A DNA stretch of 63,931 bases, counting the filler, from Hausera hauseri (lineage: Eukaryota), in NCBI GenBank assembly GCA_046269625.1. It is 10 parts of 10 records of this genome, joined end to end, with 100 filler letters (N's around TTAATTAATTAA, not from the genome) between each part and the next. Parts side by side here need not be neighbours in the genome. Positions count along the whole stretch, not along the records: positions 12,115 to 21,344 come from JBJURY010423253.1; positions 21,445 to 29,028 come from JBJURY010005456.1; 8 more parts are not named here. The stretch is one strand, 5' to 3'. Of the stretch, positions 5,581 to 34,789 are shown piece by piece. Position 1 is the stretch's first letter; every line of letters starts with the position of its first letter. The notes beneath the pieces are model-generated. The model ran no database searches and had not been told where the DNA came from. It worked only from the letters and a program-made list of their open reading frames with translations. Position numbers and translations under genes: made by a program.

Positions 5581-5625
5581 GAAATAGGGTATTTTTCTAG
5601 TCGGAGAAAGTAAATACCACTTTTC

Positions 5626-6779: not shown

Positions 6780-7076
6780 GATTAATGATGCGATGACCGG
6801 TAAAATTGCATCAAGGAATCCTCCATCTTGCTGGTACATGACCTCCCGTTTAAGTCATTTATTCCGAGCGTTGGCAAGGCTGATTAGTCGTTTTCGATAC
6901 TTTAATAAATTCCGCTTTCCATTACCAATGTCAACATGACTCACATCAAAATTGTACAAAATTTCCATTAAATCGTATACTAAAAATAGCGGGAATGATC
7001 GGAGCATGTTTTGCTTATGTTTTGTAGGTGACTTGAGCAAAGCAATAAAGTACGGCTGACTACGTTTGAATCGCAT
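6780..7076 (-). pseudogene. Small basic Polinton/adintovirus core-like protein
   Basis: DLMEILYN...LLKYRKRLISLA, then past a stop KREVMYQQDGGFLDAILPVIASL (QxGGFL motif). Confidence 0.65.
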
Positions 7077-7235
7077 TTTTGAACGTATTAATGCTGAAAC
7101 GTAGTTGTTTATAACCGCTACCACTGTGACGGTAATTGGCGTCTAGTCACTGCTGCTGCTGATGGTGTTCGAAGCACAGAATTGATTAATCGCCTTGATT
7201 AATCGCGGTTCGTTTGGAGACACGTTTCTTGCTCG

Positions 7236-8329: not shown

Positions 8330-10165
8330 GTCGCTCTTCCATATGTTTTCTTCGTAAGCTTTCAAAAATTTTCCGAAAGGTGTTATGATTGCGGTCAAAA
8401 TTTTACATGAAAATCCAGTTAAAGTAAATATTTCGTAGCTTTTTATAATAGACTAAATTATAGCCTTTATGAGTTGTACCAAAAAGTAAGTGGCTAAAAA
8501 TTCTGATATAGCTTGTCCGAAAATTAAAAATCTTCCCCAAATTTATGCAATATTTCTGTGGTGACTCTTTGATAATAATTGACGCCAAGTAAGGATTCCC
8601 ATTTTGCTTGGTAACGGGTGTTATCCATCACCGTTGACATGGCTCTATTTAGCTCATGTGTATGTTGTCGAGGGAAAGCCAAAAATTGTCTAAAAGCTTC
8701 GATCTCTTTTGGTCTGTAAATACCTTTACTTGCATTGTCAGCGAACTCATCGTCTGTTATACCTTTTAGTAAGTTTGTTCCGGTTAATTTGCCAGGCGTA
8801 GCTATTATTCCTCCATTTGGCAGACTTACCCAATTTGTCTCACTTCTCTTAAACATAGGCTCGCCTAAACCTGCTTTGCATTCTTTCAAGACACTTGGTT
8901 GTGTCGCGTTTTCTAGTAAAACTCTAGTGAGTGGCATATCCAATTGGGGTACGTTTTGATATATGTCCGGCAATTCTTTAATACAGCGTTTTTTTCCACG
9001 TTTAAAGATACGTCCCGTTTCTCACATTCGTAGATTAACAGAACTTCTCCCGTAACTCTTCCGAAAATGCCTTGTTTCATTGCAATTATTGGTGATGCTA
9101 GTTCTTGATTCGCATAGATTAAGGCTAGTTTGGTTCTCATGATTTCCATATCCAGTTTACAATCATTTGCAATCATTTTTTGATATAATTTTGCTAATCC
9201 GATTTGTTCTCTATAATAGAAGAAATCATCTCTATTTTTTAATTAATCTTCTATTCGTACGTCTTGTGTTTCCAATGTGAAGGTAGTCATTGCGGTTTCT
9301 TCCACGAAGAATGCTTCATTATTGGTAGCGTACATTACGTTGCATCGAGAGAGCATTTGTTTCTTAATAAATTTCAGTCCGTGATCCTCAGATATCAATA
9401 TCGTGGGTGTAGAGTGCTCAGCAACGTCCTTCCTTGGCCTGGCATTATTCTCGGTTGTCTACACCTACCTTTTTCCTGTGGTTTCGTTAAAATTTATCTC
9501 TTGTTTTAATAAAATTCCAATCATTCATAGGTGGTGGAGTCCAATTGACTATTGAGTTTTGAAAAGTACAGGCGCCATCTTGGATATGGCACTTCTGGTT
9601 TTCGGTATATGTTTTCGTAATACTATGGAACATCATCTTTTGATTCCTCATTTCTGTTTCGTAGAAATCGACTATTACTATTCCTGCTTCTCTTCCTTTT
9701 CTGGTATTGTGTTCATCTCCTTTACAGTATCCGGTGTGCATGTCCAGTTTTCCAATTGCTACTTTATACACTCGATTTATCTTTCCTGGTTGGACTTCTA
9801 GCTCTATTCCATCCCATCTCAGTCATCCGGTTTCGTTAGCCTGTTTACACTTGTCGATCTAAATCCATAGGAATTAGTGGAGTCGTCTGTTTTACTATCG
9901 ATGAATGTCCGTGCATGTTTCCGTAGTGGAAAATGCTTCACGGTCGTCGCAACATGCATTCTATTCCGTCTATTGCAATTAATTCGAGTTGCTGATACAG
10001 AAAATACTTTTTCTCAATGGTTACTAACTGGTGAGGTCGAGCATCTTCGCATAATTCCAAATCCATCAAGGAATATCTTTGTCCAACCTTAAACTTATCG
10101 CAGTCATATACGGTGACTGCACCGAGCTGTCTTATTAACATCATAAGTGTTATTAGTTTAATCAT
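8330..10165 (-). pseudogene. Chuvirus-like / herpesvirus gB-type (class III) envelope glycoprotein
   Basis: Signal-like MIKLITLMMLIRQLGA|VTVYDC; KCHIQDGAC; CKLDMEIMRTKLAL; GIFGRVTGEVLLIYEC; GIYRPKEIEAFRQFLAFP; C-terminal membrane region GRFLIFGQAISEFLATYFLVQLIKAII...TGFSCKILTAII. These are collinear with chuvirus G motifs. Confidence 0.82.
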
Positions 10166-12114: not shown

Positions 12115-12230
12115 GATGGACTCTACTACCTGACAACCCTAACATAGACGATGTCCTATATGGCAGCCCACAGCAGCTTATTAAAACTGCAAATTTATAG
12201 GAAAGTCTACCCAAACCTAAAGTATAACGA
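12115..12230 (+). mobile_element. Possible 3' end of a non-LTR retrotransposon ORF2
   Basis: LPDNPNIDDVLYGSPQQLIKTANL resembles the LYG..xL.xTA C-terminus of LINE ORF2 proteins. Confidence 0.35.
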
Positions 12231-13439
12231 AATTCTCGCATCTGAGCAGAGATCATCCGAATGGGAGGACAACGGATCACTTATAAACACAATTGTATGT
12301 TATAATGTTGATCTTTCGACTAAACTATGCTAAACAAATCCAGTGGATTCGATGCTCCCTGTTAGGAACAGATAGGGTTCTGTCGGCTTATCGTGTATCG
12401 GGTAGATGAAGGTGTCTGAACCCGATCCTTTCAGGTGATTATGGTCACAATCCTGTCAAATAACATGTTCAGATAGTTCAGAAAGGCTTGGATAGTCGAA
12501 GACAGATGCGCGGGGTTGCGACTTTTTTTCCGGCTTCGGCCCAATAAAACATTATGTAAACGTGAGACCAGTCTTTTCGCCGGACTATCTATGAACCAGC
12601 CTAACTCTTTGGTGTTACGGCTGCTGGTTAGTGACAGCCGCTCACAAAGTGGACAGAGATCCAAAACAGAAAGAAAATAAAAATGAATGGACGAAAATAG
12701 AATGCAGCAAGACATGAACAAATCAAACAATACGGCTGCTTGCACGACATGGCATGCACACACACGGAATCAAACAGCATGAACGGAGGGAAAATGTTGA
12801 TATTTGACAGCTGAAGGAAACAACAAACTGGTTAAAATGTTCACCGACAACAAATGGCGGTTAAAATAACTGAACACTTTCTCGTTTGTGTGTTTTTAAT
12901 TAACTCTCCTGTTCAAAGCTCGGAGAAAGTGACTTGTTTCACGAGTTTCTTTAAACAGCAATCAAGTTTACAGGGACCGTGAATGATGGGTGCGATCTTC
13001 AACAACGGCGAATCAGAAACACTGCATCCAATATTCAATGCATAGAACTATTCGCCAATTTGATTTGGCAAGACGGGGTCCATTTCCTCAATGTGTTGAA
13101 GTTTGATTTTCTCGATTCTTCAAGAAAGCAAAACAACAAAGGTCAAGGTAGCTTCAAAGGTCGTGTTAGAATCTTCCACGTTTAATTTCACCTGCAATTT
13201 AATTCACTGCCATTTCGAGAAGGAATCGTTCATGGGACTTTACTGCACTGAAAAAACAATGGAAATGTAGACATATTTTATTCATCTAACAAAAATCATA
13301 AAAAATAAAATAATAGGAATTATGACACCCATTCAAACATTTACTGAGATGTACAACAATCATAACAAGTACATCATGCTATGTGATAACATATCAACTA
13401 TTTAAGACTACAAAATTAGTCAACATGCACCAAATATTT

Positions 13440-14110
13440 TAAAAATCTATTTACCGCCGTATGAATCAAAAGCAATATCTCGCCGAATTATACCAGGAAC
13501 GTATTATTATATCATATGCATATTTCATTTCAATGTTTGATCGTTTAGGAGTCTGTCGAATAGGTTCATCTTTTCCTGGTGTAATCCATCAACCGATTTT
13601 ATTGCATCGAATAAGCTTATGCAAATAGAAAATCTTTTCATCAATTGTAACTATATTTCTGAGATATATTCTTTCATTCAACGATTGTAACAAATCTGTG
13701 CATCTCTTTGCAGGTTTAGCTTTATTTTCGACTGTCGATCTATGAGACACACATTTTGTGTCAACCCGTTTCCTTTCCAAGTCTTCTTCAATAATCCTTT
13801 GAGCTATAGTATGGAATATGTGAACTTCCTCAGCAATCGTTTTAACAGTGAGACTGTTGTCTTCTTTAATGAACCGTTTTACCAATTCAGTGTTTTCCCG
13901 TATTAAATCGCTTTATGGTCTACCACTACCTTCAAGTCTTTCAAGCGAATTTCTCTGATTTTCCTTGAACTCCTTACAAATTGCCTGTATGCGGCGTAAA
14001 CTTAAACAATCATCTGGCCACTCATCTTCCGTGATTTAATGTATTCTAGTAGCTTTATAATCACATCTGTGTAAAGTTTCAATCAGAAAAGTGTATGTGA
14101 TCCTTCGTGA
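13440..14110 (-). mobile_element. Mariner/Tc1 transposase relic
   Basis: SGRP...VKRFIKEDNSLTVKTIAEEV (HTH), KCVSHRST (WVPHEL-like) and IVTIDEKIFY (first catalytic D); stops present. Confidence 0.85.
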
Positions 14111-15141
14111 CTTCTACAAAAATAAAACAAAAATGTCAATCTAAAACAACGATACAACGCAATATAACGACAATCTAAAATTAGAGCTTTATTTGTCGGT
14201 TTAAATTAGATTTAATTTAAATTTCACACAATACAAAATAGTGAATTAAACTTAAAAACAATACAAAACAATAAACTGCACATACATTATAATAGTTACA
14301 TATCCATACAGCTCTCCTCTGATTGGGCTCTACCTATTACTAAAAACATTCGATCTTGGCACCTTATCTTTGGTTTATAATAAACTAACCCAAAACCAAT
14401 AACGTAAAATTATTAAAATAATATTACAAATATCACCGATATTATAGTCAATTTTCTGGATATGTTAACCTGGTCAATGGAAACATTGATCTTATTTTGA
14501 ATAAAACAACTAGTAATGTCAAGCTCAAGAGTTCCGCTTTTTACCTTCGCATTACGGGACTAACACGTAAACATGTAATTTATTTAATTTAATATATCTG
14601 TAGGTCATTTGTCTTATGTTTAACGCAAAGATTTGTCCTGCAATAATCATCTCTTTTCTACAGATAGATTCAGCTAACATCTTATTAACTGATCTTTAGC
14701 TCCTCTTTATTCTTTGGTATCTGTACTCTAAATGTACTTTCATAGTCAACATTCATAAGATACCAATCAATAGGACTGTGATTTTTCTTTTCGTGTATCG
14801 TTCTGTCAAACACATCATAAGATTTTGCTTTTCATTTCTGTTTCCCTTTCATTGTAGAATTTTTAACTGTATTTCCATTTTTCAGGTATTCAATGTCACT
14901 GAATATAAGTTTATAATTTTGTAAATCTACTATTCTATTGATTTTTCTGGTAAGATTTTTACTCCAACATGCAATTATTGCAAACATGATTTTTCCGTTG
15001 TTAACGTGCCTCCACCTGGTCCCAAATCCGGGGTGAGAAAAACGGAAGGACAACGGGACCTCTGAAGTTACTAATATTTTTTATTAAGATGACAATTATT
15101 TCTGAAGCCAATTATCGGTGTATTAAACTTAGTGCTTCCAA

Positions 15142-15907
15142 TATTAGGTTGTCAAAATAGTTTCCGGCCCTTGCGAACTGATGGATCTACATTTTTTATT
15201 TTCAAGCCGCTTTTTATGGTTTGGGCTTCATTTGAAAACCCGTTTTCTATTATTATTGATATTCAATATTATTCGTCTATAGTTGTTTAGAATGGAGTTG
15301 ACTCGCGAAAAAAACGCTTATTATTGTAGTTTCAATGGAAATTGGACATGAATGCATCTGAAAGCACAGAAAAGATCAATAAAGTCTATGAAAAGAGAAC
15401 GATTGGCCAATCTAGAGCTAAGGAATGGTTTGCCAAGTTCTGAAATGACGACGAGATATTGGAAGATCAGCCACACCGAGGTCGACCGACAAAATGTGAT
15501 GATGGAGAATTTTAAGCCGAATTGGACATTGAACCTTCGTTATTCACACGATTTGGCAGCAGAACGTAGCGTCTCAAACGTGGCAACCTGGAATAATTTG
15601 AAGTAAATTGATTTTGTATACAAAAGTCCCGACAAGATCCACACGAACGCACCAAAGCTCAAGCTGCCAAACGGTTTGAAATTTGACGTCAGTTGCTCAA
15701 CAATCCATTAAATGATCGGTTTTGGAAGCGGATTATGATTTCGGACTAGAAGCGTGTGTATTTGGTCAACCACAATCGAGACAAAAAATGGGTTTTGAAT
15801 AGCCAAGCAACGCCGTCAATTCCAAAGCAAGATTCATTTGGCAAGAAAGTCATGCTGTGCGTCTGGTGTAACTTTGAAGGTGATTTGCATTTTGAGTTGG
15901 TCGAACT
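15142..15907 (+). mobile_element. Mariner element, left part (TIR and transposase pseudogene), 3'-truncated
   Basis: TA followed by a TTAGGTTGTCAAAATAGTT mariner-type TIR; EWFAKF...LEDQPHRGRP, FWKRIMISD and KVMLCVWCNFEGDLHFEL, then an abrupt end. Confidence 0.9.
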
Positions 15908-18434
15908 TCATACTACACATAACAACTGTATGACTTCTGCACGAATGTCGGTTTTAGTAATGTGGAATCCATGCACACACATTTTGAAATAACCGTATAA
16001 TATATAGTACAATGACTGTTGATTGAACACAATTAAACGCATATTTTTCGATTCTTACTAATAATACACGCTGTTGAATCTATTTCAGGCTTTTTGTATG
16101 TTCTTTCTTCAGATGTATTGATATGTAACTTAATTACCATCTTTCTACAGCTTTGCAAGTGGCTTCTTTTGCTTTTGAATTTCTTCTACCATTGTATTTT
16201 TTGAAATGTTTATTATTGTCAACTGAAGTAATTTCATTAAAAAGAAAAAAGAAATAAAAAGATTGCTGAAGCACCGACGTCTGGAAAGATATTTATATTT
16301 GTTTGTATTGAGTAGTTTATATTCTTTAGATTTTGGAGATTAACATTTATCATATTTTGCATGTGCTGAGAATGCTTTTTAAAATTGTTCTAAGATATTC
16401 TTGGATGTTCATGTTTGCCGCAAAACAGATGTGAATGAGAATTAAATGCCGATATTGTACGATTTCTCGGATCGTGTCTGTTTTTGTATAGGAATTTTTG
16501 TTACATGCTAATACATTTTCGTCAGAATAAAATTCATTTCAGTTTCGATATCGTATTGTTTTTTTTTCATTTTTGATATTCCACAGTATTACATAGTAGA
16601 CAATAAACTTATTGCTCCATTATCATTAAACAACAATTAGGTATCAATTCTAATCTTTAGTTGAATATAGAACACACTGTTTTACAAATACATGTTTCAT
16701 CCGTATTTAACCGAAAATCGACAAACTTTCCGGAATTCGTCAATCTTATTGTTGTGCCCAACAAGCGCCGTTTATTGACTTCTAAATACACTGTTATTGT
16801 TTTCCTTATTTGCTGTTATCTTTTGTTATCTTTTTCTGCCGACGATTTGATGCACTTTTGCAGTTTTATATCACCGTGACAAAATACAGCAACGCTTAGC
16901 CGCAACCGTCAGATCTGAACCACAACAACTCAGATTTACAGCGATCAAGAATCAAGGAATCTCTAAGATGTTTCAGGAGGCTTTTTGTTTCAATCGTCAA
17001 AGAAGAATACACCCTGACGTTTATAACCAAAACGCACTGATTCAATTACCTAACGCAGGCTATCAGTTAAACGAAATATCAAATATCGATGACATTACAA
17101 AATTCATGCTTGATGGAACAAGTCGCATAATGCTTCTACTGGTTGTACAAGATGTTGCTGAAAGTAACATCTCTGTGATGAAAACCAAAAGCAAAAAGCT
17201 AAACCATTATCCTCTGACACATCTCGATCTTTTCGATCTGACTTAAACATTCCGGATAAACGATTAATTATTGAGGCATAAAATTTTAAGTCAGTGGTCA
17301 AATTTAATTAATAAAACAGCAGTTTCATTTAAACTGGCGTCGTTTTTTGTATAAGGGATAAATTGGATTTTTCTCTGCTTTACTTGGTCTAGAATATTGT
17401 GGAGTTTTAGTTTGCTTTTAATACATAGGTCAGATTCTATAATTTCCTATTGTTGGCCAAGAAAGAAACAACCGATATTGACTGTAGACAAAATTCAGTC
17501 TAGAAATATTAAAGATATTGTAAAATCGTTTGCGTTGACAAATTAGTTAAAAATGTATTGAATTTTGAAATTTAAACAAATAATAAATTAGCAATTGTTA
17601 TATTTGTTGCTTTTATGTGGTTCATAATGATGGGATTATTTAAAATCCCTGACTAAACACAGAAACTTCACTCATCAAGTAATCGTTCAATACGATGTAG
17701 CTCGTCGTTTATAGCCTACTCTAATTTACTGTCGATGTCGGATATCCTAAAGTCGTAGCGGTTATTCTGGTTCGAATTTCTTGTCGTGAAATTTATGTAA
17801 GAAAATTGTGAGTAATTCTTCGTGTCTAACGGTTCATATACAGTCGTAAAATAAGAATTTTGCAATTTCGAAAATTTAGACCAATAGAAATTCAAATATT
17901 GAAATTCGAAATTTGTCACAGTGACTATCCGAGTACGTTAATCACCATCTTGCGACTTCGTGCAATAAATTTTAGATGACTAATATGGGTCATCTTGGAA
18001 TATCCAAATTTTATTTTTAAAATTTCCAATGTACTAATTAATTAGAAAATAGAACTTTATGATAAAATAAAATATTTTAATATTGAATTAAATTAAATTT
18101 TGTTTTACTTTGAGTTAAATTTTATTTCATATTACTTTAAGTTTGACATTGAAATATTTAATAAAATGTTACCAATTATTTTTGGTCTTTTATGGAAATG
18201 TATCAATTTTATCCCAAATTCCATATGAAATATTGAAATACTTAATCTAAATTGTTGCAATTTATTTCTGCTCTTATATTGAAATATACCAGTTTTGTCC
18301 CAAATTCCATTTGAACTTTACCTTATTTGCTTCTTTACCCGGAATTGGGAAAAATGAAAAAAAATATTCATATATATTTTCAATTATACATTTGTCTTTT
18401 AGTTTACCCTTTATTTAATGTTAACTAGTTACTC

Positions 18435-18797
18435 AGTTACTTTGCCGTCATTGGCTAACACATTGTGTATATTATAAAGAAATACAGGAGATACCCATCA
18501 GGGGTTTAACACAAACAAACACAAAAAGACGTTTACATATATACAAGGGTTTATTATTTATACAGAATATTAACATCCTCATAGCCAAATTTGTTTGAGT
18601 TGCACAATTTTGAATTAAAATATTATTGCCAATACTTTGTTAATTTTGAATCACATATGCTTTTATTTCGGTTCATATTTGTGGATTCGGAGTAGATTCG
18701 GATTACATTGAAATTTCGCGCTCCGCTTTGGGTTCGAATACATTGTGTCTGAAATTTTGATTTTTGTGTTTAGGCGGAGTTAATTAAGGAATCCTAA
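18435..18797. repeat. Diverged block shared with 22291-22635 (contig 4)
   Basis: Collinear TTACT..GCCG..TTGG.TAA, GATACCCATCA, TTTAACACA, TTTATTATTTATAC and ATTAAGGAA motifs with similar spacing. Confidence 0.75.
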
Positions 18798-19551
18798 CAC
18801 TTCTAAATCGTAAAATGTTTCGAAATTCGTTCAAATATCATAATTTATAGCAGTCATTAACTTCACATTGCTCACCAGTGTATCTACATGCATTTCTCAA
18901 CTAATAAATCCCGAGAGTTATTTCCTCAATGACACTCAGCGAAAGTTTGCGGAAGTGAGAAATTTTTTCAGCTATTACAGACGCATATTCTTTCAAGGAA
19001 TTCTTTTCTTAAAGCTGAAGTGTCTGCAATTTTTGCGGAATGACGTTGTCTTTTTGTGCCAATTTGACAATTCTTTATATTTGTTCATCACTTACGTCGC
19101 CGCTTTTAACTAATGAAGAGCCAAACGCATTTTCGAAAGTAATCTGATACTGACTGTGTTTCGAAACATTTTGTACTTTCATTTGAAGTGTCCATGTTTG
19201 TTTCAACTGCCCAATGAAACATAATCATCAATCGTGATTTATTAGCTTGCTTCGTATTATACTGGCAACCTTTCTTTGCAAAATGCCATATAAAATTTTT
19301 CATAGCTTGTTTTAAAGCTTTGCTTTACAAACAAAACCAATTTAATTTTAATTTAATAACACAATTTAATTTTAAATAACTCAATTTTAAATGACTTAAC
19401 TTAAAATTCAATTTAATAATTACGGATTAGCATAACATAAATTACAAATAAAAATTAATAACAAAAAACATAATTTAGTTTCTAAATACAAAATCAATCA
19501 CAAATATAACATCTTTTTCCGAACAAACAAACAAACCAATTTCAGAATCTT

Positions 19552-19809
19552 TCAAAACAAATTCGCACTTTCAAAGATCATGTTCAGCACGATATGCCTG
19601 GCAAAGAAGCCAAGAACGCAAGTGAAACTCAAACCAACAATTAATACAGGTTGTGAGAAATCCATACCAAAACAACAAACCGCGAAAAGAACGAAAGCGA
19701 CTGCGAGGCCCAATGAGCCGATCACTATGAAGAAACGATGGCAAATCCCGAAATACTTCAAAAAGAAATGTGATATATCCACGCGTATGTACCACATGAT
19801 GTCTATCAT
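19552..19809 (-). CDS. Putative small orphan protein with two hydrophobic segments
   Basis: 85-aa ATG ORF with FFIVIGSLGLAVAFVLFAVCCF and PVLIVGLSFTCVLGFF; GC content is higher than the flanks. Confidence 0.35.
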   Translation of the reverse strand: MIDIMWYIRVDISHFFLKYFGICHRFFIVIGSLGLAVAFVLFAVCCFGMDFSQPVLIVGLSFTCVLGFFARHIVLNMIFESANLF

Positions 19810-19982
19810 ACCTCCTACAGCCTTTTATGCTGTGTCGAGATCAAGTCCACCAACGCGAGCCACGACGACAAGATCGCCTCCATCGAAATGCGTTTTAAAA
19901 TGTGTCTTTGAACAATAAACCTTCTAACCAGAAAATTTTGTTCTCTATTACGTTTTCACCACTCATTTTATTCGACTGTCGT

Positions 19983-20760
19983 TTAATACTTATACTGTGG
20001 AGCCTGTATAAAGCTTTCGCACAAAAGAAAATAACCAAACTTTTTCGGATAAAGACAATAATTCATCTCGAAATCCATGTCCACTAAAATTGCATCGCCA
20101 GCTTGGAAAATATGAAATATTCGAATTCGTTTCTGTATCATTGTCTTGACTATCGATGCATCGTTATTTATCCCAACGTAAGGACCCCATGCATTTACAA
20201 TATAACCATCAAGCAACACTATTATCATTGGTTTAATAAGTGGTCTTGGCTTCTGAACACTATATAGTCGCTATTGTATTGTATATTTGCTGGATTTTTC
20301 GGTGTACAAGTACGTTCCATCAAATATAACAAATCAGGCTTTCATCGCTAACACCAAACAATTGCTGACATTGCTTTGATACATGCTGTAATAGCCTATT
20401 ACGATTAATTCCAAGATATTATAGTAGGAAGTTGTCTAGAATGTACTGTCTTGTTAAGCTGAGACATCTTGACACTACAATTCTATTTTCATATACAAAT
20501 GCTGCTGTGATGTAATTGTTATATAATCCTTATCTCATTTTGAATAAAGCATTCCAAGTTTCGTCCTTTTACTGTAGTCAAATCTGTTTCTGCTGCCAAC
20601 ACGAAAAACAAGTGTTGAGAAGAACGAAATTAAACTGCACCACATTTAAACCGGTCGGAAACGTCTTAAGCTGCTTCTCATCTCAGTGTAATAAAAAGTT
20701 ACAAGGATCTTTGGAATTTGCTTTGATAAGGAATTCTTTATGGCCTCATATTTAAACATT
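19983..20760 (-). mobile_element. PIF/Harbinger-ISL2EU-type DDE transposase relic
   Basis: LYSVQKPRPLIKPMIIVLLDGYIVNAWGPY...NNDASI...GDAILVDMDF (DDE_Tnp_4-like); decayed upstream. Confidence 0.75.
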
Positions 20761-21444
20761 TTTTTGCTTTAACCAACATTCGAGCTCTTAATGCTTATAT
20801 TTCACAAGAATATGCCCACCGTAATTTTTATGCCTTTTTTGAATCAATATGTGGAATCAATAGTGTGGGTGCATAACTCCCATAGGCTTATTATTACATG
20901 GTGGCGTTTAAATGCTTTGTTGGTAATATTGAACGACGTTTGAACAAAATCCGAAAGACGTATTCAATTATTTTAAAGCTGATGTTATTAATTCAAACAA
21001 TTTTCAATCAGTGACAGAGAAGGTATGGAACCACGTCCTTTCATTTTAATTTTTACTTCAATTGACATTATTTCACTTCTACACCCAGACTTTGATGCAA
21101 TTCTGTATAATCAAATACTTTTGTACGCTAATTAGAAATGTGCAAATTATTTTCCTTATTATGTGGAAATTTCTGAGTTCTGAATAATAAATTTTTATTA
21201 TCGTTACTACTGGTATACGTTATTACCCTATGTGAAATCAAAATATTTACAAAATTACATTGCTTCATTTAATAGACTAATGAGCATACGACGGTCAGAT
21301 ATTACACACAATTTTACACAAACCATTTTATATTTGGAAAGGATNNNNNNNNNNNNNNNNNNNNNNNNNNNNNNNNNNNNNNNNNNNNTTAATTAATTAA
21401 NNNNNNNNNNNNNNNNNNNNNNNNNNNNNNNNNNNNNNNNNNNN

Positions 21445-21521
21445 GATTCAATTATTATTTTCCTTTCGTCTCTCCCTTAATTTGGATAGGCAGCCTTTTC
21501 TGAGTGTAAATTCAGCGTGTC
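21445..21521 (+). repeat. 77-bp exact terminal direct repeat, left copy
   Basis: GATTCAATTATTATTTTCC...AATTCAGCGTGTC is identical to 28952-29028. Confidence 0.97.
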
Positions 21522-22290
21522 AGTTCAATTCTCCACATACACGAATATTTTCACAAAAACCCATTGTGGTAATTCTGTCTGGACTATTTAATACGCAGCT
21601 GATTGTTTTATAATTATGTATTTGTGTGCAGTGTATAACGATATGTATATATGCACATTTGTGCACGTGTATGTAAATATATTTGTATGTAAATCTGTGG
21701 TGGTAAGGCAAAGCAAATTACCTGCACCCTAGATCAAAATTAAAAATGACACAGTCTTTCATATGAAATTATTTCGATTCAATCATAAGAATTCATCTTT
21801 ACTACTAATAAGAAATACGCATGGATAATGACACGAAATCATTGCAATGTTGCATAATAATAGAATTCTATCGTAAACGTTTATTTATTCGATCATTTGT
21901 ATAAAGGCAATATTATCAAAATACTAAATGATTGTACAAATCGTTCGGAATCTTGTCAAAATAATAAGTGGCGACATAACTGATGTACACTCTACTTATT
22001 AATTAAGGAATTTGAAGGTGAAGAGTTTATAAAGTTTTGCATTTTATACATATTTATTACATTTTAATAAATCCTTCTCATATGCTAATTATGTCGTCGG
22101 AACCTTACTTCTGCTAATTTTATTGTAAGATGGAATCTGAGGAATGAAGAAACAGTACCTGGCACTTGCTCATTATACCACATATTGGTAATTGTACATC
22201 GTGCGGTACATAACGCTCGTTATCGCCATGTGTTTGTCATGTACTGCAATATTAACACTTGTGTATTTTGTATTTACTTAATTATTTAAT

Positions 22291-22635
22291 CATTACTCTA
22301 GCCGCCTTGGTTAATAATGTTTGTATAAAATGCAGCAGTGGTGGTGATACCCATCAATGGATTTAACACACATCAAAACTAGAAGGCATTCAATTATATA
22401 AACATCGATTTATTATTTATACACAGATATTCACATAGTCAGTGTTACTTGTTAGAACTGTAAAGATTTCGAATCATAAAATTATAGTTAATGATGTAAC
22501 TGTTTTTTGGATAACACAAGTAAATGTTATCGTATATTCTTCTTCATCCTGAATTGGTTTTGGTGTTTCGGGATCAAATCGAGTTATGGGTTTTTGGAAT
22601 TCGTATTTAGAGTGATTTTCATTAAGGAAATTTAA
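22291..22635. repeat. Diverged block shared with 18435-18797 (contig 3)
   Basis: GATACCCATCA at 22346, TTTATTATTTATAC at 22409 and ATTAAGGAA at 22621; overlaps the small minus-strand ORF 22474-22659. Confidence 0.75.
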
Positions 22636-23792
22636 CAAAATATAGGCTTTGGGATGCATTAATTAAATTGCAACTTTTTAAACCATCAATATTACAAATA
22701 GCATAATTCTGAAATTATTTCGGCAGATTTAAAACTTTGTTTCGAAAGTACTAAAACTTATATTCATTACCAAATACTTTAATCGAAATGCCCGATATCA
22801 ACAACAATGAAGGTACTGCAATAAGTGGAAAAGATATTGGAAATAACTAATTGGAGTTATTCACAATATTTGTCAATTCTAAAGACTGTTTTGTTAAATG
22901 AATGAAAGATTTTGCAATTTTTATTTCACTTTTATCTTATAACATTCAAAAAAATTGTTTGATAATAAGATTTTATGGTAAATACTAACATAAATTGAAG
23001 ATGTTTCATGATTTACTAACACTTTCATATTGCCATAGAATAGAAAATAAGTTTTATCGATAAGTTCAACATAACAATTAAATTTTTTGAAATTTTAATT
23101 GGATAAATTAAATTTTTACTTTAACAGTATATAAATAAATAATTGTTTGTGTAAATAATAATTTGAATTAAAAATTTATAGTGATTTATTGAGTATTTCC
23201 GTAATAGAATATTGATAAGTGAATGAAATGTAATAAATAAAGTAATTCGAACTTTATTATTTTTTAATGTTTCAATTTAACAACTTCATATATAAGAAGT
23301 TAAAATGGCATTTTTGCCATTTTTATTTATAATATCTATTTAACAAATCCGTGATAGTTCACGGAAGAAAGTTTACAAAGTAAAAATGTGTAAGGAAGTT
23401 CTTAAAGAATTAAACTTTCAGAATGGAAGATTATTCAAAGTATAATTGTTATTGCATGGAATAATTAATACTTGTTCTAATGAAAACATTTTACTGCTAA
23501 AGTATTGATAAAGATATTTCAAAAGATTCTGAACTTTAAAGATTGATTTGATTAAGGTTTAGCAGGTGAATATCAATTGATAAATTAATAGAAATTAAAT
23601 AATGATTGTAAAATTGTTAATTTTGGCTTTATTGCGCACTGTGAGATAAACTATAATTAATCTTTATTGAAAACATTTAAAATCTATCCTCATCTTTCAC
23701 AAGAATGAATATTATTCGTTCAATACAAAACTATAATAAAAGTAACAAATAGAAAGATACAAAAGTTTTTTATTGAACATAGAAATAAACTT

Positions 23793-25922
23793 TTATGGTA
23801 ATACTTTATTTACAATTTTTTCACCAAGTCTGTTTGAAGCTATCAATCTAATATGTTCAACACATTTTTGTAAACCTTCTAAATCCGAAACGGTCTCAAA
23901 ACTCTTTCTGAAAAATGAGGAACACTCTTCACTTACAAATCGTTCAAGAAATTCTGCCAAAAATTCCCAAAACTTTGGCACATCCTCAATTATATCATCC
24001 GCATTGTTTATTAATTTCTGGATACTATAAACTATATCTTCTACTTTTAAAATGTTTAACTGTTCCGCTCTGAAAATATAGTCTCCCAAATTTCTTCTGC
24101 AGCTTGCATTTTTTTCCAACATATCGTCAATCCATTTTGTCAGAAGCTGTTTTGGATTTTTGATAAACTTTAATGACTCAATCATTGCATTTCCCAATGA
24201 TATTTCATAAAATAATTCATTTTCAGAAATGTTTTTGATATTTTCGCTTTCTCTATTCGGCTCTTCATTGACTACATATGGTTTATTTTCCTTATTTGAC
24301 TTCATTGTGTTACAATCGGAATTTTTACTGTTATAATAACGTCTTGATGAAATCTTCAAATTTCTAACTTCACCTTTTTGATAGCACTCTGTTTTTGATT
24401 CATTATTCCAAGCATTTCTATGATTGTTAGAAAATGTTGCTGTTCTGTTTGCTTTTGGAAACTGGATTTCATTATCGTTTTGTAACTCTTTTAAGGTTTT
24501 CGGATCAACACTTTTCTGAGCTGTTCTTTCGGTCCATTTTCGCTTGCGCATGTCCAAAACATCTTTTACTTTAAATCTGTATCTTGTTTCTAACGTGTTC
24601 ATTCTACTTAATTGTTCTACGTCTACCATTAATTCATCAAATCTTTTAGCAAAATTATTTTCAAGTATTTTTCCACACCTTTCTAAGATAATACAAATTG
24701 AATTTATATTATCAAGATTAGTCACGTTTTTCAACAGTGATTCTAAACATCTGATGATAACGTTTCCGTTTAAACAGTTTTGAATAAACAATTCAGAAAT
24801 AAATCTCATATTACCGAAGTAATTATCTTTTACTTGACATATCTTTTCTTCAACACTCTCTTGATAAAGTATTTTCATTCTTTCATCTTTTTCCTCGTCA
24901 ATACGTTTTCTCCAGTTTTCTCTTTCAATTTCCATTAATTCAGTTAAATTTGATTCAAATAAGGTTTTGCACTTCTTCAAAATCAGCGCTTTAAAAGACA
25001 ATGTATCGCATTTCAAATCAAATATTCGGCAACAAAACCGAGAATATACTTTTGCATATCCACGCTCCTTTATTGCTTTACAAAATATTTCGTGGCTCAA
25101 AAGTTCAAGACTACTTTCATCAAAATATCTACATGTTTTCAATTCATTCAAACATGATTCGAAATTCTCTGGTGCAAGCATGTTGAGTATTTTAAGAAAT
25201 CTTCTTTTAGTATTTTCACTTTCATTCTCATTTTGAGTTCTTTTATGTGGAACTTTATAACTATTTTCATATTGCGTTTGTTTCTTAAGTTTTGTAGTTC
25301 GCCACTCACCCGCAGGTTCTACGCATTGATGATTCAGAAATAATAATTTTACTGGTTTCAAAGATAAAATTGACCTAAGATTTTCATTGCTAAATGACAA
25401 ATGTTTAGGCCTTTCTCTACAGAAACTTAATTTTTGAAGTTCTTCTACCGTGTACGTCTTTATCTTTTGTTTTTTACTTTCCACCATTCTATTGGATTCT
25501 GAATATATACTTTCTGTTTTACTCATGTCATTTGCAGTATCTTCACACAAAGTTGTATTTAAATCACGTATTTTTTCAATGTTGCAATTTGACTTTCTAT
25601 TAAAGTCTATTGCAATTTTTGTTACCGGATCTAAAACAACTAACGGTTTTAATTCTCTTTTGCATGACTTAATTGTCGTCACCGGATCCAGAACAACCGA
25701 TTCTCGTTTTGCCGGATTAAGTGTTATTATTGGATCCAAAATTGTTAGAGGTTTGAATTCTCTTTTACTGACATTACTTTGATTATGCTGAATTTGATTT
25801 TTATAAACGACATCAGAACCATTGTTAAAATGCAATATTGATTTTGTTTTCGGATCAACAATTGTTAGTGGCTTGAACACTCTCTGGCTCAATGTTTTTT
25901 CATTCATTTGATTCATATTCAT
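23793..25922 (-). CDS. eIF4G: Divergent intronless eIF4G-like translation initiation factor (PABP-binding-like repeats, 4E-binding-like motif, MIF4G, partial MA3)
   Basis: 709-aa intact ORF. MIF4G: ILNMLAPENF...IFCKAIKERGYAKVYSRFC...FKALILKKC...GNMRFISELF...RYRFKVKDVLDMRKRKW. MA3-like: LEKNASCRRNLG...ADDIIEDVPKFWEFLAEFL. YTVEELQKL motif. AATAAA follows the stop. Confidence 0.9.
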   Translation of the reverse strand: MNMNQMNEKTLSQRVFKPLTIVDPKTKSILHFNNGSDVVYKNQIQHNQSNVSKREFKPLTILDPIITLNPAKRESVVLDPVTTIKSCKRELKPLVVLDPVTKIAIDFNRKSNCNIEKIRDLNTTLCEDTANDMSKTESIYSESNRMVESKKQKIKTYTVEELQKLSFCRERPKHLSFSNENLRSILSLKPVKLLFLNHQCVEPAGEWRTTKLKKQTQYENSYKVPHKRTQNENESENTKRRFLKILNMLAPENFESCLNELKTCRYFDESSLELLSHEIFCKAIKERGYAKVYSRFCCRIFDLKCDTLSFKALILKKCKTLFESNLTELMEIERENWRKRIDEEKDERMKILYQESVEEKICQVKDNYFGNMRFISELFIQNCLNGNVIIRCLESLLKNVTNLDNINSICIILERCGKILENNFAKRFDELMVDVEQLSRMNTLETRYRFKVKDVLDMRKRKWTERTAQKSVDPKTLKELQNDNEIQFPKANRTATFSNNHRNAWNNESKTECYQKGEVRNLKISSRRYYNSKNSDCNTMKSNKENKPYVVNEEPNRESENIKNISENELFYEISLGNAMIESLKFIKNPKQLLTKWIDDMLEKNASCRRNLGDYIFRAEQLNILKVEDIVYSIQKLINNADDIIEDVPKFWEFLAEFLERFVSEECSSFFRKSFETVSDLEGLQKCVEHIRLIASNRLGEKIVNKVLP

Positions 25923-26620
25923 AACACAAAGATAGTTTATTATACTAATCTTTCACAAATGGCTTCGAAATTTTCATTTAAATTAATTCTTTATAATAAT
26001 ATTGGATAAATGTGAATCCCATTACAGGTTCTAATGTATAAGTTAAAATTTACAAATTTAACATTCATATGTTAAAGAATGGTAATTTTGTGTTTGAAGA
26101 ATTTAATGAGATAAAGTTAATTTAAAAAGGTCAAATTAACTTTGTTGAAATATACACCTAATTTTAATTTTCAATATAAACTTTTGGTGGAAAGGGTTTT
26201 AAGTAATTTATAATTTTGAAATAAAATTGAAATATCATGGAATAATAATAGCAAATTACAATATTACATAATATAAACGAAGATGTGTATTAACACTAAA
26301 AATATAAGATATCTCTTTAAATATATAGTTTGTTTGTATACTAATATTATTGCGGTTTAATTATTTTAATATAATAAATTAATTATTTTAAAATTATTAT
26401 GATTTTGAAAATTTTATTATAAACCGTAACATGGTAATACTATTTGATTTAATACGTTACAATATTTGACCAATCGTTGTACATTGACGTTGGTAAGAGC
26501 CACTTTATTAACAAATAATAAAACTATTTCAATTTATTTAATTATACAATAATCTCTTACTTTATATTCTGATGAAAGTTAAATAACCTAAGATAGATTT
26601 TATGTCTAACCAATGATATG

Positions 26621-27713
26621 TAGGGGAGACCGGGGCAGGTTGTAACAGTTACTAAAACAAGCCAAACATTTATTGTAATTTAGTTATTTATCTATTAGCA
26701 CATCCGTTTGGCACCAGCTGATAATGCAAAACTAGAGACAAGCGTATAGTTTTCGATTACTATACAGTATTGCAGGTTTGTTAAATTTTACTTTACAAAG
26801 TATTATTTAGTAGTTTTGATTATTTCTTTCTCTAATTTAAACCTGTTTGTCGATTTTGGTATCTATATAGTCAAACATGTGCAAATATATAGTGACTGCA
26901 CTGCCTTAATTACGAGATGGTAGTATTTTCAGTTTCGTTGCTGTAGACTGCTGAAGTTATGCCTCAAGGCTGGGGCAGATTGTAACATTGTAGTGCAATG
27001 TAGGTTGCAATGCGTTACAACCTAGCCCGATGTATTTTGCAGCAAAGTTCACTATAATCGTACGCATTGCTGCTACGGTATATAAGCCTAGTGTATGAAC
27101 TCCGTATAAACATGTACCGTATAGAGATATAACCATTTGATTTGCATCAATATTATGTAAATATATATTTTTTAGAATGAAAACTATAAAAGAAAGACAA
27201 TTAGAGGAAACGCGTCGAATGACGAAATTGAGGCTGCCGTAAACAGAGTGATTGAAAATAAAGAATCAATTCGAAAGGTAGCCAGGGAGTTTGGCATTGT
27301 ACAAGTCACTTTCTTTCGATAAATAAAGAAGGTTCAGGCGAGAATAACAAATAAAATGCCTGCCAAACTGGATCAAGTTGGCTATATCCCAAATCGTCAA
27401 TTTTTCACACCGGCTCAATTAGCTGAACTTGATAACGTATATAACTGCTTCACGCAGTGAAATTAATATTGTTACAACCTTCTTCGGGAAGTGTTGCAAC
27501 TTGCCCCATATCTAAGGTTGCTTGTAACACAAGTGAAGACCTTACGAAAGCTTATATCTTCTGAACATTAACGTCTAGCCGACCGTATTATTCACTATAC
27601 GTAGACCGATATTGGTTGATTAATAAGCGCTGATATCTATTTTAGAATATATCACTACAGTCCGCTAAGAAGGATAAAGCAAAAATTGTTACAAGTTGCT
27701 CCAGTTTCCCCTA
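26621..27713 (+). mobile_element. Pogo/Tigger-like non-autonomous deletion derivative
   Basis: TA-flanked imperfect TIRs (TAGGGGAGACCGGGGCAGGTTGTAACA / TGTTACAAGTTGCTCCAGTTTCCCCTA), subterminal GTTACAAC repeats, and an HTH-psq remnant EIEAAVNRVIENKESIRKVAREFGI near 27180-27440; no DDE domain. Confidence 0.85.
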
Positions 27714-28951
27714 TAACATATTATATATTTAGATGGCTTCATGAATTTTGTAACTAATTCTGCAAATAGAAAATTTGAAGGAAAATTAAATTAAAGTCAA
27801 ACTTAAAATTTGAAGATGATGAACATTAAAGTTTCATAATTATTAATCGTCATTTTAAATTTTTTGTCACTAAATAATTGTAAATTGATTTATTTAAAAA
27901 TTATTACTGTCCATAAAGAAATGAACTAGTTATATGTTGGTTCATTTTATCATTGAAAACAAATATACAAAATTAATTAAAGAATTCAGTTAGAATCTCT
28001 TGTACTATTTGGATATTGAAATTACAGAATATCAATTTCCCAAATTAAATAAAGACATTTATAACTGTTTATTGTGCGTTCCAATTTGGTACAATTTTGG
28101 AAAATTTTTGACAAAATTTCTTTGAAGATGAAATATATTTGTAACAACTTAAGAAATTTCAAAGTTTTTTCCAGAAAAAGCTATTTAATATAGAAGTAAT
28201 CGATTAGTGGTCAACGGACTTTTATAAAACCTGGAAGTAACATAGTATTCATCATGTTGATTATTCAACATAAATGAAAAATGGCTACAGATAAAAATGG
28301 CTTCCATGCTGAAGTTGCAAATTTGTAACGGATTCTATCCTAGTCAATCATACACATTAAATATTTTTACTAATATAAGTTGAATATAGATTTTATTATA
28401 TATGAATAAAGACGGATTTGCTCGGCAAAATCCGCGGATCAAAATCCGGAGTATCACTTGGCTTATTATCGCACATTTTAACTCAAACTGAATTCGAATT
28501 ACTTTTAAATTATATTTATTTTAATCCTAATTTTGAAACAAATTATAAATACATAATAATATTACTTATTATTTATTTTTTCTGAGCCATTAATATCCAT
28601 TCTCCTTTATGATACTTGTTCACTCTAAAATTAAACATTTTTATTTACATAAGTTGCATATAGATTTTATTATATATATGTACACAGTTTTTCAACTAAT
28701 AGAAATTTTCATTTCGAAAAACACAATTCGAAATATGGACTACTCCAAATTCATACACTGTTGTTCACGTTGGAGAAGTCTAGTTTGGTAGTAACGATTC
28801 CTCTTTCCCATATATGAATTTTTATATCCATAAAATAAATATACGGTGATAATAAAATAGCCAAACCAAGACCTTAAATTTTGGAAAGTCTGCATAAAAA
28901 TTGAATGTGGGTGTTCGAAAAAGGCTTTTCATATAGTACTTGAAAAACATT

Positions 28952-29028
28952 GATTCAATTATTATTTTCCTTTCGTCTCTCCCTTAATTTGGATAGGCAG
29001 CCTTTTCTGAGTGTAAATTCAGCGTGTC
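28952..29028 (+). repeat. 77-bp exact terminal direct repeat, right copy
   Basis: Identical to 21445-21521. Confidence 0.97.
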
Positions 29029-32528: not shown

Positions 32529-32987
32529 TTATTGCCGGATAATCCATCCTAACACAGCAATGATAACAATAATTAGTAACACAAGCGAAGGCTTAAGTTC
32601 GAGTTTCTTTAAATATATACTGGTGGGATACTTGAGTACGATAAATCGTTCAATTGCTAGAATAGCCAGAATCCAAAAGGAAGTATCCGTAAAAACGTAA
32701 GAGGCATAATGATGTAACTTACAAACGATATTACTGATCGTTCGAATGTCAAACCCGAACATGTAAATAATGAATAGTCGTAATCCCATTATGAGTACTG
32801 CTAATTCATCGGATACTGATTCGCTAATAAGAAACACGCGAGTAAATGTTTTTACTTTTGTTTGGGCTTTAAACACAATTATGCAAAATATGTTTCCGAA
32901 AAGACCAATTATAACAGTAATCGTTATGATCCATTTGTAAATATTAAAAGCTGTTGAATCGGAAGGATTTACGCGTGATAGGTTCAT
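32529..32987 (-). pseudogene. Class A (rhodopsin-like, peptide-receptor-like) GPCR, truncated after TM4
   Basis: TM1 IIGLFGNIFCIIVF, TM2 FLISESVSD, ECL1/TM3 CKLHHY...WILAILAIERFIVLKYP; the ORF stops just after the fourth hydrophobic segment. Confidence 0.85.
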
Positions 32988-33316
32988 AAATTATCTGACT
33001 AATTTTTCTATGCATACATCTGATAATTTATAGGGGATTGTTAGTTCCAATAGGAGTTGTCAGATAACTTAAATCCAAACAATCCAATTCGACAGAGAGA
33101 AATAATGAGATAATTATTAAAGTATACATGAGACTTTAATACTAAAACTGAGAAAAAGAAAAACTTTGAAAATAGTTTATTTGCCACGAAACATTATAAA
33201 AACTTTCACAAACACCGGATTTAATGAACCTTTGAGGCGTAAATAATGTTTGCTGTCAGATTTATTCAACATATAGATATGTTGATGAAATTTAATTTTT
33301 TGAATAATAAAGATTA

Positions 33317-34789
33317 ATGAATTCTGGATCAAAAGTCCTGCTAATGAAGAAATCTCCAGACGTGGATATTAACGAAACTAATGGAGAAGGAGAGCTAATT
33401 CCTATCAGAGTAGGTCAGGGAAGGTTCAAAGGTAACGCGTGTGAAGATTCACCGCGATCTGGTGGATGGTTAAACCGGAAGAGACGGTTGAAATCACCAA
33501 AGGAAAATTTGTCCCAATCGTCGTATTGGAAACCTCAGATACAATGTTATTCTCAACTAACTAATTCGGGGACTTTAGGATTAAATGATGTGGAAGGTAT
33601 TTTAACGGTTGGGAAATCGGTTCGTGCAAATGAAGGGGGAGCTGAACAACCGATTATTCTGAAGATGGAGATTTATTTACAAGATAATTCCACAACACGG
33701 AGAAATACAGAGAGTTCAGGAAGCCGGTTGTATCTCGTGGCTGATTCAGCAAAGGCCATGACTGATAAATCTATGTCGCTGAATATGAAGAGAACGGTTC
33801 GACGTAGTGATAGACAGTGTGGATTAGTCAAGGTATTTAAGTGTCGTATTAATAATAGTGTTATTGTTTATCGTTCTTTTCTTGGCCTGGTGAACTCTGT
33901 CGGAGGTTGTGATAATTGTTTGAGAATATGTATGTCTGCAAAATTCCGTATGAGTGATTGGGACGATGCATTTAAAGGTGGAGAAAATCCCCCGGAGAGC
34001 AGCCCTCCGTTATCAATGGCTGCGAAAATTACCAGAATTGAATTGTGTAACCATATATATGTATATACTTCAGGTGGGGATTGGAGGGAGGATATGGGAA
34101 TATATGAATCAAGGAGTATGAAGATTGGACCGAGAATAAAACTACTCAAAACAAGGATTGATGCACGGGAATTTGAGATGGTAGGGTATGGGGGTACGTT
34201 CGGGTTGCGGGAGGATTTAAGTAATTCCGAGAAAAAATGGGTAGAAATAAGGGTTGGGGAAAAAGTGGAAAATGTGTTGTCAAAATATCGTAGAGAAAGA
34301 GTACACAATTACCCTCGCTATTTTGTTAAAAATTCTTCAACAAATGGTAGCAGAGCGTGGTTTACGCTCCCCCTTGTGATCCGGGAGTGTGAACCACGAC
34401 TTCTGATTGTCTCGAGAAGTTCTCATGTCCTTCTTCTTGTTTTCGGCACTTCTCCATTCCGTTTGTTTAAAATTGATCAAGCGAAAATCTTCGCAAAAGA
34501 CATCCAACTCACAGACCAGGTCGGAGAAAGCTGTGAAAGTGATTCTGTGAGTTGTGGTGGGATTGCGGAAGTGCCGCTTAATGGAGGTATGGTTTGGTCT
34601 TGGGCAGAGAGCCAATTAAAACCATATCAAATGGCCATGGGTATAAAAAGATCCTGGCTGGATAAAGAAAGGACGGAGAAGAGAGAGGGGGAAACTTTCA
34701 AGGAGATGGAAAGGAGTTGGACGAAAAAAGAAGAAAGTCACGCTTCCCAAAGAGAAAAAGAAAATGAGAGAAATACGAAACCAGATAAA
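33317..34789 (+). CDS. Orphan ORF of about 490 codons, open to the contig end
   Basis: Stop-free from the ATG at 33317 to the gap. The antisense frames I read contain stops, and the DNA is purine-rich and more GC-rich than the upstream flank. Confidence 0.5.

What the first reader, a model, noticed from the sequence alone, without database searches (positions are those of the whole stretch)
18435..22635. Diverged block of about 350 bp shared between contig 3 and the eIF4G circle
Seen: 18435-18797 and 22291-22635 share, in order, TTACT..GCCG..TTGG.TAA, TATAAA, GATACCCATCA (18490 / 22346), TTTAACACA, TTTATTATTTATAC (18550 / 22409) and ATTAAGGAA (18783 / 22621). The non-coding motifs are better conserved than the adjoining decayed small minus-strand ORF, and the CCCATCA-GG core can form a short hairpin in both copies. 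The surrounding gene content differs. Inference: a cis element (excision, replication, packaging or 3'-end signal) defining a family of cargo-carrying segments, one appearing linear among host transposons and one as a circle.
Basis: partly seen in the sequence, partly recalled or inferred. Interest (0 to 1): 0.72.

Follow-up and report, generated by a model that had tools for sequence, protein, structure and literature searches.

The report
Old repeat relic on amplified circle
The stretch shared by the two contigs is real but looks like two worn copies of a scattered genomic repeat; the more curious thing is the 7.5-kb head-to-tail DNA unit around one copy, which carries an intact, unusual translation-factor gene.

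Summary
The homology is real but shorter than reported: a 222-bp core (18412-18633 / 22271-22492, 67-69% identical, 0 of 500 shuffles), with only a faint tail to about 18900/22750. The 'motifs' are no longer than uniform decay gives (P 0.12-0.15), the hairpin is not shared, and the adjoining 'decayed ORF' is unsupported. Public contigs laid on the circle show the block is a family: 13-32 other contigs in run X1 carry a shared variant at block positions, and contig 3 has their letter at 3 of 3 listed sites and matches their rightward continuation (23 of 30). The circle's copy is the diverged one. The circle also carries a pogo-like transposon derivative and other multi-copy pieces that contig 3 lacks. 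Best reading (0.6): a relic of an unclassified dispersed repeat riding on an amplified, homogeneous 7,507-bp unit (true circle or tandem array, unresolved) with an intronless, deeply divergent eIF4G gene, seen in three studies. A family of gene-carrying circles with shared cis blocks is not excluded (0.17), because the other copies could not be fetched. The bracovirus, MITE, SINE, Helitron and LTR hallmarks that could be tested were not met.

The parts
18412..18633 (.). Shared block, contig 3 copy (core); closer to the family than the circle's copy
   Evidence: family letter at 3 of 3 listed sites and 23 of 30 match to the loose-end consensus
22271..22492 (.). Shared block, circle copy (core); carries private changes relative to the family
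18634..18900 (.). Faint rightward extension of homology (vs 22493-22750); includes ATTAAGGAA; no supported ORF
   Evidence: 3 of 500 and 1 of 500 shuffles in two windows, 98 of 500 in a third; stop counts not depleted
22039..22270 (.). Leftward extension of the family on the circle, shared with a few low-depth contigs of run X1 but not with contig 3
   Evidence: joints 22121-22237 (2 contigs, side 83) and 22199-22301 (1 contig); 65 of 500 shuffles vs contig 3
21445..28951 (.). 7,507-bp head-to-tail unit (circle or tandem array)
   Evidence: 77-bp terminal repeat; junction 28951-21445 bridged by one contig in X1 and one in X2
23793..25922 (-). Intact intronless eIF4G-like ORF, 709 aa (MIF4G, weak MA3), member of a divergent unnamed clade
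   Evidence: Pfam MIF4G E 1e-13, MA3 E 1.3e-4 below cut-off; human eIF4G1 E 5e-22; clade of 17 of 86 tree leaves, support 0.98
26621..27713 (+). Internally deleted pogo-like DNA transposon: 80% complementary 30-nt arms beginning and ending in TA, HTH_psq remnant
   Evidence: HTH_psq 22.4 bits, cut-off 20.4; other copies in X1
28190..28951 (.). Second, larger multi-copy region of the circle, continuing through the junction to about 21520; holds a 48-bp direct repeat (28356/28630) around a GC-rich double hairpin; absent from contig 3
   Evidence: 17-105 other contigs per listed site in X1; contig 3 vs this region 16 of 40 shuffles; left edge approximate
22776..22913 (.). 138-bp piece shared (21 other letters, 4 gaps) with a different 738-bp contig of high depth
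   Evidence: record 3 (depth 106.6 in X1; 8.24 for the same indels in X2)
15292..15992 (+). Decayed mariner transposase in contig 3 (context; start approximate)
   Evidence: Pfam Transposase_1 E 1.8e-10 on 15750-15989
19570..20755 (-). Probable decayed DDE_Tnp_4 (ISL2EU/Harbinger-like) transposase in contig 3 (context; limits approximate)
   Evidence: Pfam DDE_Tnp_4 E 0.032, below cut-off; subfamily label recalled

Best explanation
The block is a fragment of a dispersed, middle-repetitive element, most likely the non-coding part of an old transposon family of unknown class, in the genome of an AT-rich eukaryote. It spread by that element's own copying. One copy decayed in ordinary chromosomal DNA among other transposon remnants (contig 3); another decayed in a 7.5-kb chromosomal stretch next to an intronless eIF4G-like gene. 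That stretch was later amplified head-to-tail, as an extrachromosomal circle or a homogenised tandem array, and carries the block passively together with a pogo-like derivative and pieces of other repeats. Shown: homology, multi-copy family, even decay, head-to-tail junction in two runs, intact ORF. Inferred: transposon origin, passive carriage, amplification relative to the rest of the genome, same organism for both contigs.
For: Even 67% identity without excess motif runs, 29 transitions to 35 transversions, indels of 1-2 nt. In run X1, 22, 13 and 32 other contigs carry a shared variant at 22315, 22401 and 22426; contig 3 has that variant at all 3 (only 40 of 296 variant rows were shown, 3 in the block). 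16 contigs run on past 22441 with a consensus matching contig 3 at 23 of 30 (best hit in the window) and the circle at 17 of 30 at best; their loose parts are short (median 85), while the circle's own copy lies in one unbroken 4,412-bp contig. Left-extending relatives have depth 3-6 per contig against about 54 for the circle. The circle holds at least two other multi-copy pieces that contig 3 lacks; contig 3 is linear with mariner and probable DDE_Tnp_4 remnants.
Against: No element class could be assigned: no TIR, TSD or shared end, no Rfam or tRNA match, no protein match for the adjoining frame. The core is clearly better kept than its flanks, which suggests past constraint on it. Mean depth of the other block contigs (16-40 each) fits collapsed repeat copies but equally a set of other abundant circles. 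A different high-depth contig shares 138 bp nearby and changes ratio to the circle between runs (about 2.0 in X1, 1.1 in X2).
Confidence: 0.6

Rival explanations
1. The block is one of several conserved cis blocks of a family of gene-carrying DNA circles (working like polydnavirus segments or dicyemid circles): segments are excised or amplified from chromosomal copies, the blocks serve excision, replication or packaging, and contig 3 is an integrated or decayed segment.
For: Homogeneous unit with its junction in two runs, 5 other letters over about 6.3 kb in X2 and exact pieces in X3; similar numbers of other contigs (about 13-43) at the block and at 28230-28293 and 28805-21505; a second high-depth contig sharing 138 bp; an AGCT at 28179 near the left edge of the larger shared region, the layout described for bracovirus WIMs (PMC4169385, passages); intronless cargo gene.
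Against: No AGCT or palindrome in the block; contig 3 lacks the larger shared region and terminal repeats; the circle's copy is the diverged one; the eIF4G sits in a clade far from ordinary eIF4G and no Pfam family other than MIF4G/MA3 and HTH was found among the 3 circle frames scanned plus the transposon remnant; no relative in viral contigs; with 9 AGCT sites on the circle one near some repeat edge is unsurprising.
Confidence: 0.17
2. The block is the promoter/polyadenylation core of an LTR (minus strand: overlapping TATAAATA and AATAAA, then a GT-rich tract), and the unit is a one-LTR circle or tandem of a non-autonomous LTR element that captured an eIF4G mRNA in sense orientation.
For: TATA-like and AATAAA sites in register in both copies on the minus strand (18562/22421, 18555/22414); intronless ORF on the same strand; LTR-flanked retrocopies are common in animals (PMC5131818, abstract).
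Against: Neither of two recalled primer-binding-site patterns found near either copy; no clear LTR ends or purine tract seen by eye; no gag/pol match; no depth doubling or contig break between 22239 and 26650; no close parental eIF4G found (best 33-42% identity).
Confidence: 0.11
3. The block is a multi-copy host element (promoter or 3' end of a small gene family, or an undescribed small RNA gene).
For: Core better kept than flanks; TATA/AATAAA in register; a weak three-base trend in identity (58 of 71, 52 of 72, 47 of 73; about P 0.07 by hand).
Against: Stops and 1-2-nt indels in every frame; no Rfam match at E <= 1; no shared fold.
Confidence: 0.08

Closest known systems
Old interspersed repeats (unclassified non-autonomous transposon relics)
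   Same: Tens of related copies, even decay with small indels, ragged ends, found among other transposon remnants.
   Different: No class hallmark found (TIR, TSD, tRNA-like head, LTR ends); no eukaryotic repeat library was available to name it.
Bracovirus / ichnovirus segments (WIM/DRJ and HIM; PMC4169385 and PMC10025437, passages read)
   Same: Several-kb circle, one cargo gene, non-coding stretches shared with other sequences, apparently above background depth.
   Different: Block has no AGCT and is not an inverted repeat; cargo is a divergent eIF4G; the linear copy is not shown to be a J1/J2-bounded integration.
Dicyema circular DNAs (PMC6543705, passages read)
   Same: Circular contigs defined by 77-nt terminal repeats, with motifs shared between otherwise unlike circles.
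   Different: Those are mostly under 1 kb, non-coding or mitochondrial, with 12-20-bp motifs confined to circles; here 7.5 kb, a nuclear gene, and a 220-bp block also on a linear contig.
Gene-amplifying eccDNA such as the Amaranthus palmeri EPSPS circle (PMC5879691, abstract read)
   Same: A host gene amplified head-to-tail and found in separate samples.
   Different: Far smaller; extrachromosomal state and any selective role are unshown here.
LTR-mediated retrocopies (PMC5131818, abstract read)
   Same: Intronless gene flanked by repeat-derived DNA in sense orientation to a TATA/AATAAA site.
   Different: No LTR pair, primer-binding site, retroelement coding remnant or parental gene identified.

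Membership tests
Bracovirus segment | Junction (WIM/DRJ) containing AGCT with conserved adjoining sequence | tested here: not met
   No AGCT in 18380-18900 or 22030-22760. Elsewhere on the circle an AGCT at 28179 lies near a multi-copy edge; inconclusive for the circle as a whole.
Bracovirus / ichnovirus segment | HIM: imperfect inverted repeat with J1 and J2 about 50 bp apart | tested here: not met
   Self-inverted score of the block no better than shuffles (455 of 500, 416 of 500). The published J1/J2 logos are figures and could not be scanned.
Bracovirus / ichnovirus segment | Proviral copy flanked by direct repeats in a wasp genome; packaging in virions | not testable with these tools
   No genome held; 18 of 578 loose ends shown.
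MITE / TIR DNA transposon | Terminal inverted repeats and target-site duplication at the block's ends | tested here: not met
   No 14-nt arms at 12+ matches; no flanking direct repeat of 8+ nt in contig 3, one 8-mer on the circle. The true ends of the family may lie outside the searched range.
SINE | tRNA-, 5S- or 7SL-derived head with pol III boxes | tested here: not met
   No tRNA, no Rfam hit, no exact match to recalled A/B box patterns.
Helitron | 3' hairpin followed by CTRR at homologous positions (feature recalled) | tested here: not met
   CTRR sites exist in both copies but no shared hairpin, and the family runs on at both sides.
LTR retrotransposon | TATA box and AATAAA within the repeat | tested here: met
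   Minus strand, in register in both copies; common in 72% AT DNA, so weak.
LTR retrotransposon | Paired LTRs, primer-binding site, gag/pol | tested here: inconclusive
   Two recalled PBS patterns absent; no coding match; other PBS types and full-length copies not examined.
   In the window 1 of 2 copies is on a circular contig and 8 other sequences searched hold no full copy; the other family copies could not be fetched.
Extrachromosomal circle (vs tandem array) | Free circular molecule | tested here: inconclusive
   Junction bridged in X1 and X2; short-read contigs give the same picture for a tandem array.

The most novel reading that the evidence does not exclude
An unsequenced AT-rich eukaryote keeps a family of amplified, few-kb DNA circles, each with one intact cargo gene (here a divergent eIF4G with N-terminal repeats) and shared non-coding blocks that drive excision or replication: a polydnavirus-like or dicyemid-like segment system outside the known hosts, stable enough to be nearly identical in three studies.
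Probability: 0.15. Interest if true: 0.85.

Novelty: new member of a known kind. Interest (0 to 1): 0.32.

Why it matters
If the best reading holds, the block is ordinary: one more unnamed repeat. What remains worth a look is the unit around it, an intact, lineage-specific eIF4G gene amplified head-to-tail and nearly invariant across studies; amplification of a cap-dependent translation scaffold on a circle was not found in my paper searches. If the circle-family reading holds, it would be a new segmented gene-delivery or gene-amplification system, and the shared blocks would give direct probes for its mechanism.

Tried and rejected
Pattern scans of viral contigs: 0 hits, 1 hit (L002), which lies in a phage coding region and scores E 0.25 or worse with the block profile: chance. 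Pattern scan of metagenome contigs: 1 hit (L001), similarity limited to 30-42 nt around the pattern in unlike flanks: treated as chance. eIF4G alignment and the read-through frame against viral contigs: no relative. Read-through frame 18472-19230: no Pfam family beyond E 0.05, none of 105 candidates scored, PDB best E 0.83, single-sequence model pLDDT 34, not searched further; a gag-like or BED-finger look was recalled only and is unsupported. Atlas: the circle's 62-codon frame and contig 3's 131-codon frame gave low-recognition, uninformative rows. Protein-level comparison of the right flanks: best 2 of 18 frame pairs at 1 of 200 and 0 of 200 shuffles, the top alignment off the DNA diagonal. 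Rfam 12115-29028: 0; ARAGORN: 0; the bacterial promoter scan is irrelevant and below chance. No RNA holder listed. Cluster membership and names for the eIF4G relatives could not be obtained; of 10 with sources shown none came from NCBI or UniRef and one bore a name, 'translation initiation factor 4G'. The 5 look-ups of earlier findings returned nothing. Paper searches showed no report of an eIF4G-bearing circle in the listings; the library lacks most subscription papers, and no supplements were read (published WIM/HIM alignments are there or in figures).
Full report
Setting. The window is a string of separate contigs joined by N spacers; no whole genome is held. Contig 3 is 12115-21344 (33% GC, no terminal repeat). 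Contig 4 is 21445-29028 (28% GC) and ends in an exact 77-bp copy of its start, giving a 7,507-bp head-to-tail unit. The other contigs hold retrotransposon-like, polinton-like, GPCR and microsatellite DNA (most of these labels are recalled from the translations) and may come from several organisms.

The observation. The homology is real. Sensitive blastn gives 18412-18633 against 22271-22492, 68.9% over 228 columns, E 5e-22; the next contig 3/contig 4 hit is an AT-rich E 2e-6. The extent is smaller than reported: of 16 collinear 120-bp windows only the two over the core are significant (z 10.0 and 7.7). The left flank is not (65 of 500); the right flank is faint (3 of 500, 1 of 500, and 98 of 500 for the piece next to the core). 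The named motifs are at the stated places, but 153 of 227 columns match evenly (18-24 of 30 per window), and permuting the columns gives a run of 15 in 15% of trials and top-three runs of 35 in 12%, so they are what two-thirds identity leaves behind. The hairpin is not shared: the two cores pair different bases, with z -1.4 and +0.8, and the consensus folds are weak on both strands. The adjoining 'decayed ORF' is unsupported: stop counts of 11-18 per frame against 17.7 +/- 4.3, with 35% of 1000 shuffles as open, and no match in Pfam, the protein collection, viral contigs or the PDB. Identity by position modulo three is 58 of 71, 52 of 72 and 47 of 73, a weak trend broken by 1-2-nt indels.

The block is a family. 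Three runs from three studies hold the circle (97%, 85% and 8% of sampled words; X1 may be the source sample). Laid on the circle at 80% likeness, X1 shows about 54-fold word depth over the unique part but 308 over 22204-22456. At 22315, 22401 and 22426, 22, 13 and 32 other contigs carry a shared different letter. Contig 3 has that same letter at all three (the tool showed 40 of 296 variant rows, three of them in the block, and the third site is next to an indel). Sixteen contigs leave the circle's sequence at 22441; their consensus matches contig 3 at 18582-18611 at 23 of 30, the best hit in the window, and the circle at 17 of 30 at best. Three contigs of summed depth 6.5 and 5.8 share sequence to the left, back to about 22039, with deletions. 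So both copies belong to one family that extends beyond the block on both sides, and the circle's copy is the diverged one. If single-copy depth is 4-6, which I infer from the low-depth relatives, the extra depth would mean roughly 60-200 copies; contig depth is not a copy number, so this is only an order of magnitude.

The circle. Its junction is bridged by one contig in X1 (136 letters on the short side) and one in X2 (180). X1 pieces match without a difference, including one 4,412-bp contig over 22239-26650; X2 pieces at depth 6-8 show 5 other letters and 2 gaps over about 6.3 kb; X3 has four exact pieces of 150-220 bp (24 of about 1,720 pieces shown). It carries one long ORF, 23793-25922 on the minus strand, 709 codons with no intron: Pfam MIF4G E 1e-13, MA3 just under cut-off, human eIF4G1 E 5e-22. 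Its nearest relatives are 33-42% identical environmental proteins of 277-821 aa; in a tree of 86 of 153 MIF4G domains (the 16 clade candidates plus the first 70 others) they form a clade of 17 with support 0.98 and a long stem. None of the 10 whose sources were shown comes from a reference database, and none was found in viral contigs, so the organism is unidentified. The circle also holds a pogo-like derivative at 26621-27713 (inverted arms, HTH_psq remnant) with other copies in X1, a larger multi-copy region from about 28190 through the junction to 21520 (17-105 other contigs per site), and a 138-bp piece shared with a different contig of depth 106.6. Contig 3 has no match to the larger region (16 of 40 shuffles score as well) and carries a mariner remnant and a probable DDE_Tnp_4 remnant.

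How it most likely works. Shown: two evenly decayed copies of a multi-copy element, one in a linear contig with transposon remnants and one in a homogeneous head-to-tail unit littered with other repeat pieces. Inferred: the element spread as a transposon of unknown class; the core is better kept than its flanks because it was the constrained part while the family was active (it has a TATA-like site overlapping AATAAA on the minus strand in both copies); and the 7.5-kb unit is amplified host DNA, about tenfold over the low-depth relatives in X1, that carries the relic passively. I put this at 0.6. Whether the unit is a free circle or a homogenised tandem array cannot be told from short-read contigs.

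Rivals. A family of cargo circles with shared cis blocks (0.17) would explain the unit's homogeneity, the similar numbers of other contigs at the block and at parts of the larger region, the second high-depth contig whose ratio to the circle differs between runs (about 2.0 and 1.1), and mean depths of 16-40 for other block contigs. An AGCT at 28179 lies near the edge of the larger region, as in bracovirus WIMs, where about 100 nt beside the tetramer are conserved (PMC4169385, passages), but the circle has 9 such tetramers. Against it: no AGCT or palindrome in the block, its absence of linkage to the larger region in contig 3, the circle's copy being the outlier, and the short loose ends of the other copies. 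A one-LTR circle or tandem of an LTR element with a captured mRNA (0.11; mechanism in PMC5131818, abstract) fits the strand and the missing introns but lacks a primer-binding site, LTR ends, depth doubling and a parent gene. A host promoter or small-RNA family gets 0.08.

Comparison with known systems. It works like an old interspersed repeat; membership in MITE, SINE or Helitron classes failed the tests that could be run and LTR membership is inconclusive. The circle resembles polydnavirus segments (PMC4169385 and PMC10025437, passages), Dicyema circles with shared motifs (PMC6543705, passages) and gene-amplifying eccDNA (PMC5879691, abstract) in layout only. Searches for an eIF4G-bearing circle or segment listed no such report.

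Verdict. Observation partly confirmed; interpretation partly supported. The block is most likely an ordinary unnamed repeat relic (new member of a known kind, interest 0.32). The open lead is the amplified eIF4G unit; the circle-family reading has about 0.15 probability in its strong form and would deserve 0.85.

Noticed in passing
window 21445-28951: The 7.5-kb unit is nearly identical in runs of three studies bearing three different organism codes, with the junction in two of them and depth well above that of related repeat contigs in X1.
   Followed up: partly
window 23793-25922 (-); P0001-P0008, P0010, P0012, P0014, P0015, P0097, P0153-P0155: A well-supported, long-stemmed clade of short eIF4G-like proteins from unnamed environmental sources; several end right after MIF4G, others keep MA3; those with contig lengths shown lie on contigs of 1.0-2.4 kb. 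The window's member has three to four copies of a K-x-L-x-I/V-x-D-P motif at its N-terminus and a degenerate eIF4E-binding-like motif (label recalled).
   Followed up: partly
window 28314-28344: 16-bp imperfect palindrome, 10 nt, then CTAG and T: looks like a Helitron 3' end (pattern recalled), but related contigs appear to run on homologously past it.
   Followed up: partly
window 28407-28478: GC-rich double hairpin (z -2.1) shared with about 50-100 contigs of X1 that have a different GC-rich sequence upstream; sits between 48-bp direct repeats at 28356 and 28630.
   Followed up: partly
window 22776-22913: Matched by a different 738-bp contig at twice the circle's depth in X1; in X2 a contig goes back 138 bp here, suggesting a tandem unit elsewhere.
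   Followed up: no
window 24725: A difference carried at full depth by the one X2 contig there falls on the first position of codon 400 of the eIF4G ORF.
   Followed up: no
window 18047-18315: AT-rich loosely palindromic tract with an 86-bp tandem duplication directly left of the contig 3 copy; may have truncated it.
   Followed up: no
window 55193-59889: Contig with five same-strand open frames of 105-275 codons, none with a Pfam match.
   Followed up: no
window 1-7235: Broken minus-strand frames that look polinton/adintovirus-like (recalled; no Pfam match for the 4 frames scanned).
   Followed up: no
window 8524-9021 (-): Weak match to Monjiviricetes fusion glycoprotein (E 8.5e-5, below cut-off) in a contig of broken retrotransposon-like frames.
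   Followed up: no
window 32529-32990 (-) and 33317-34789 (+): A rhodopsin-family GPCR fragment (E 1.8e-11) beside a 491-codon open frame with no Pfam match.
   Followed up: no
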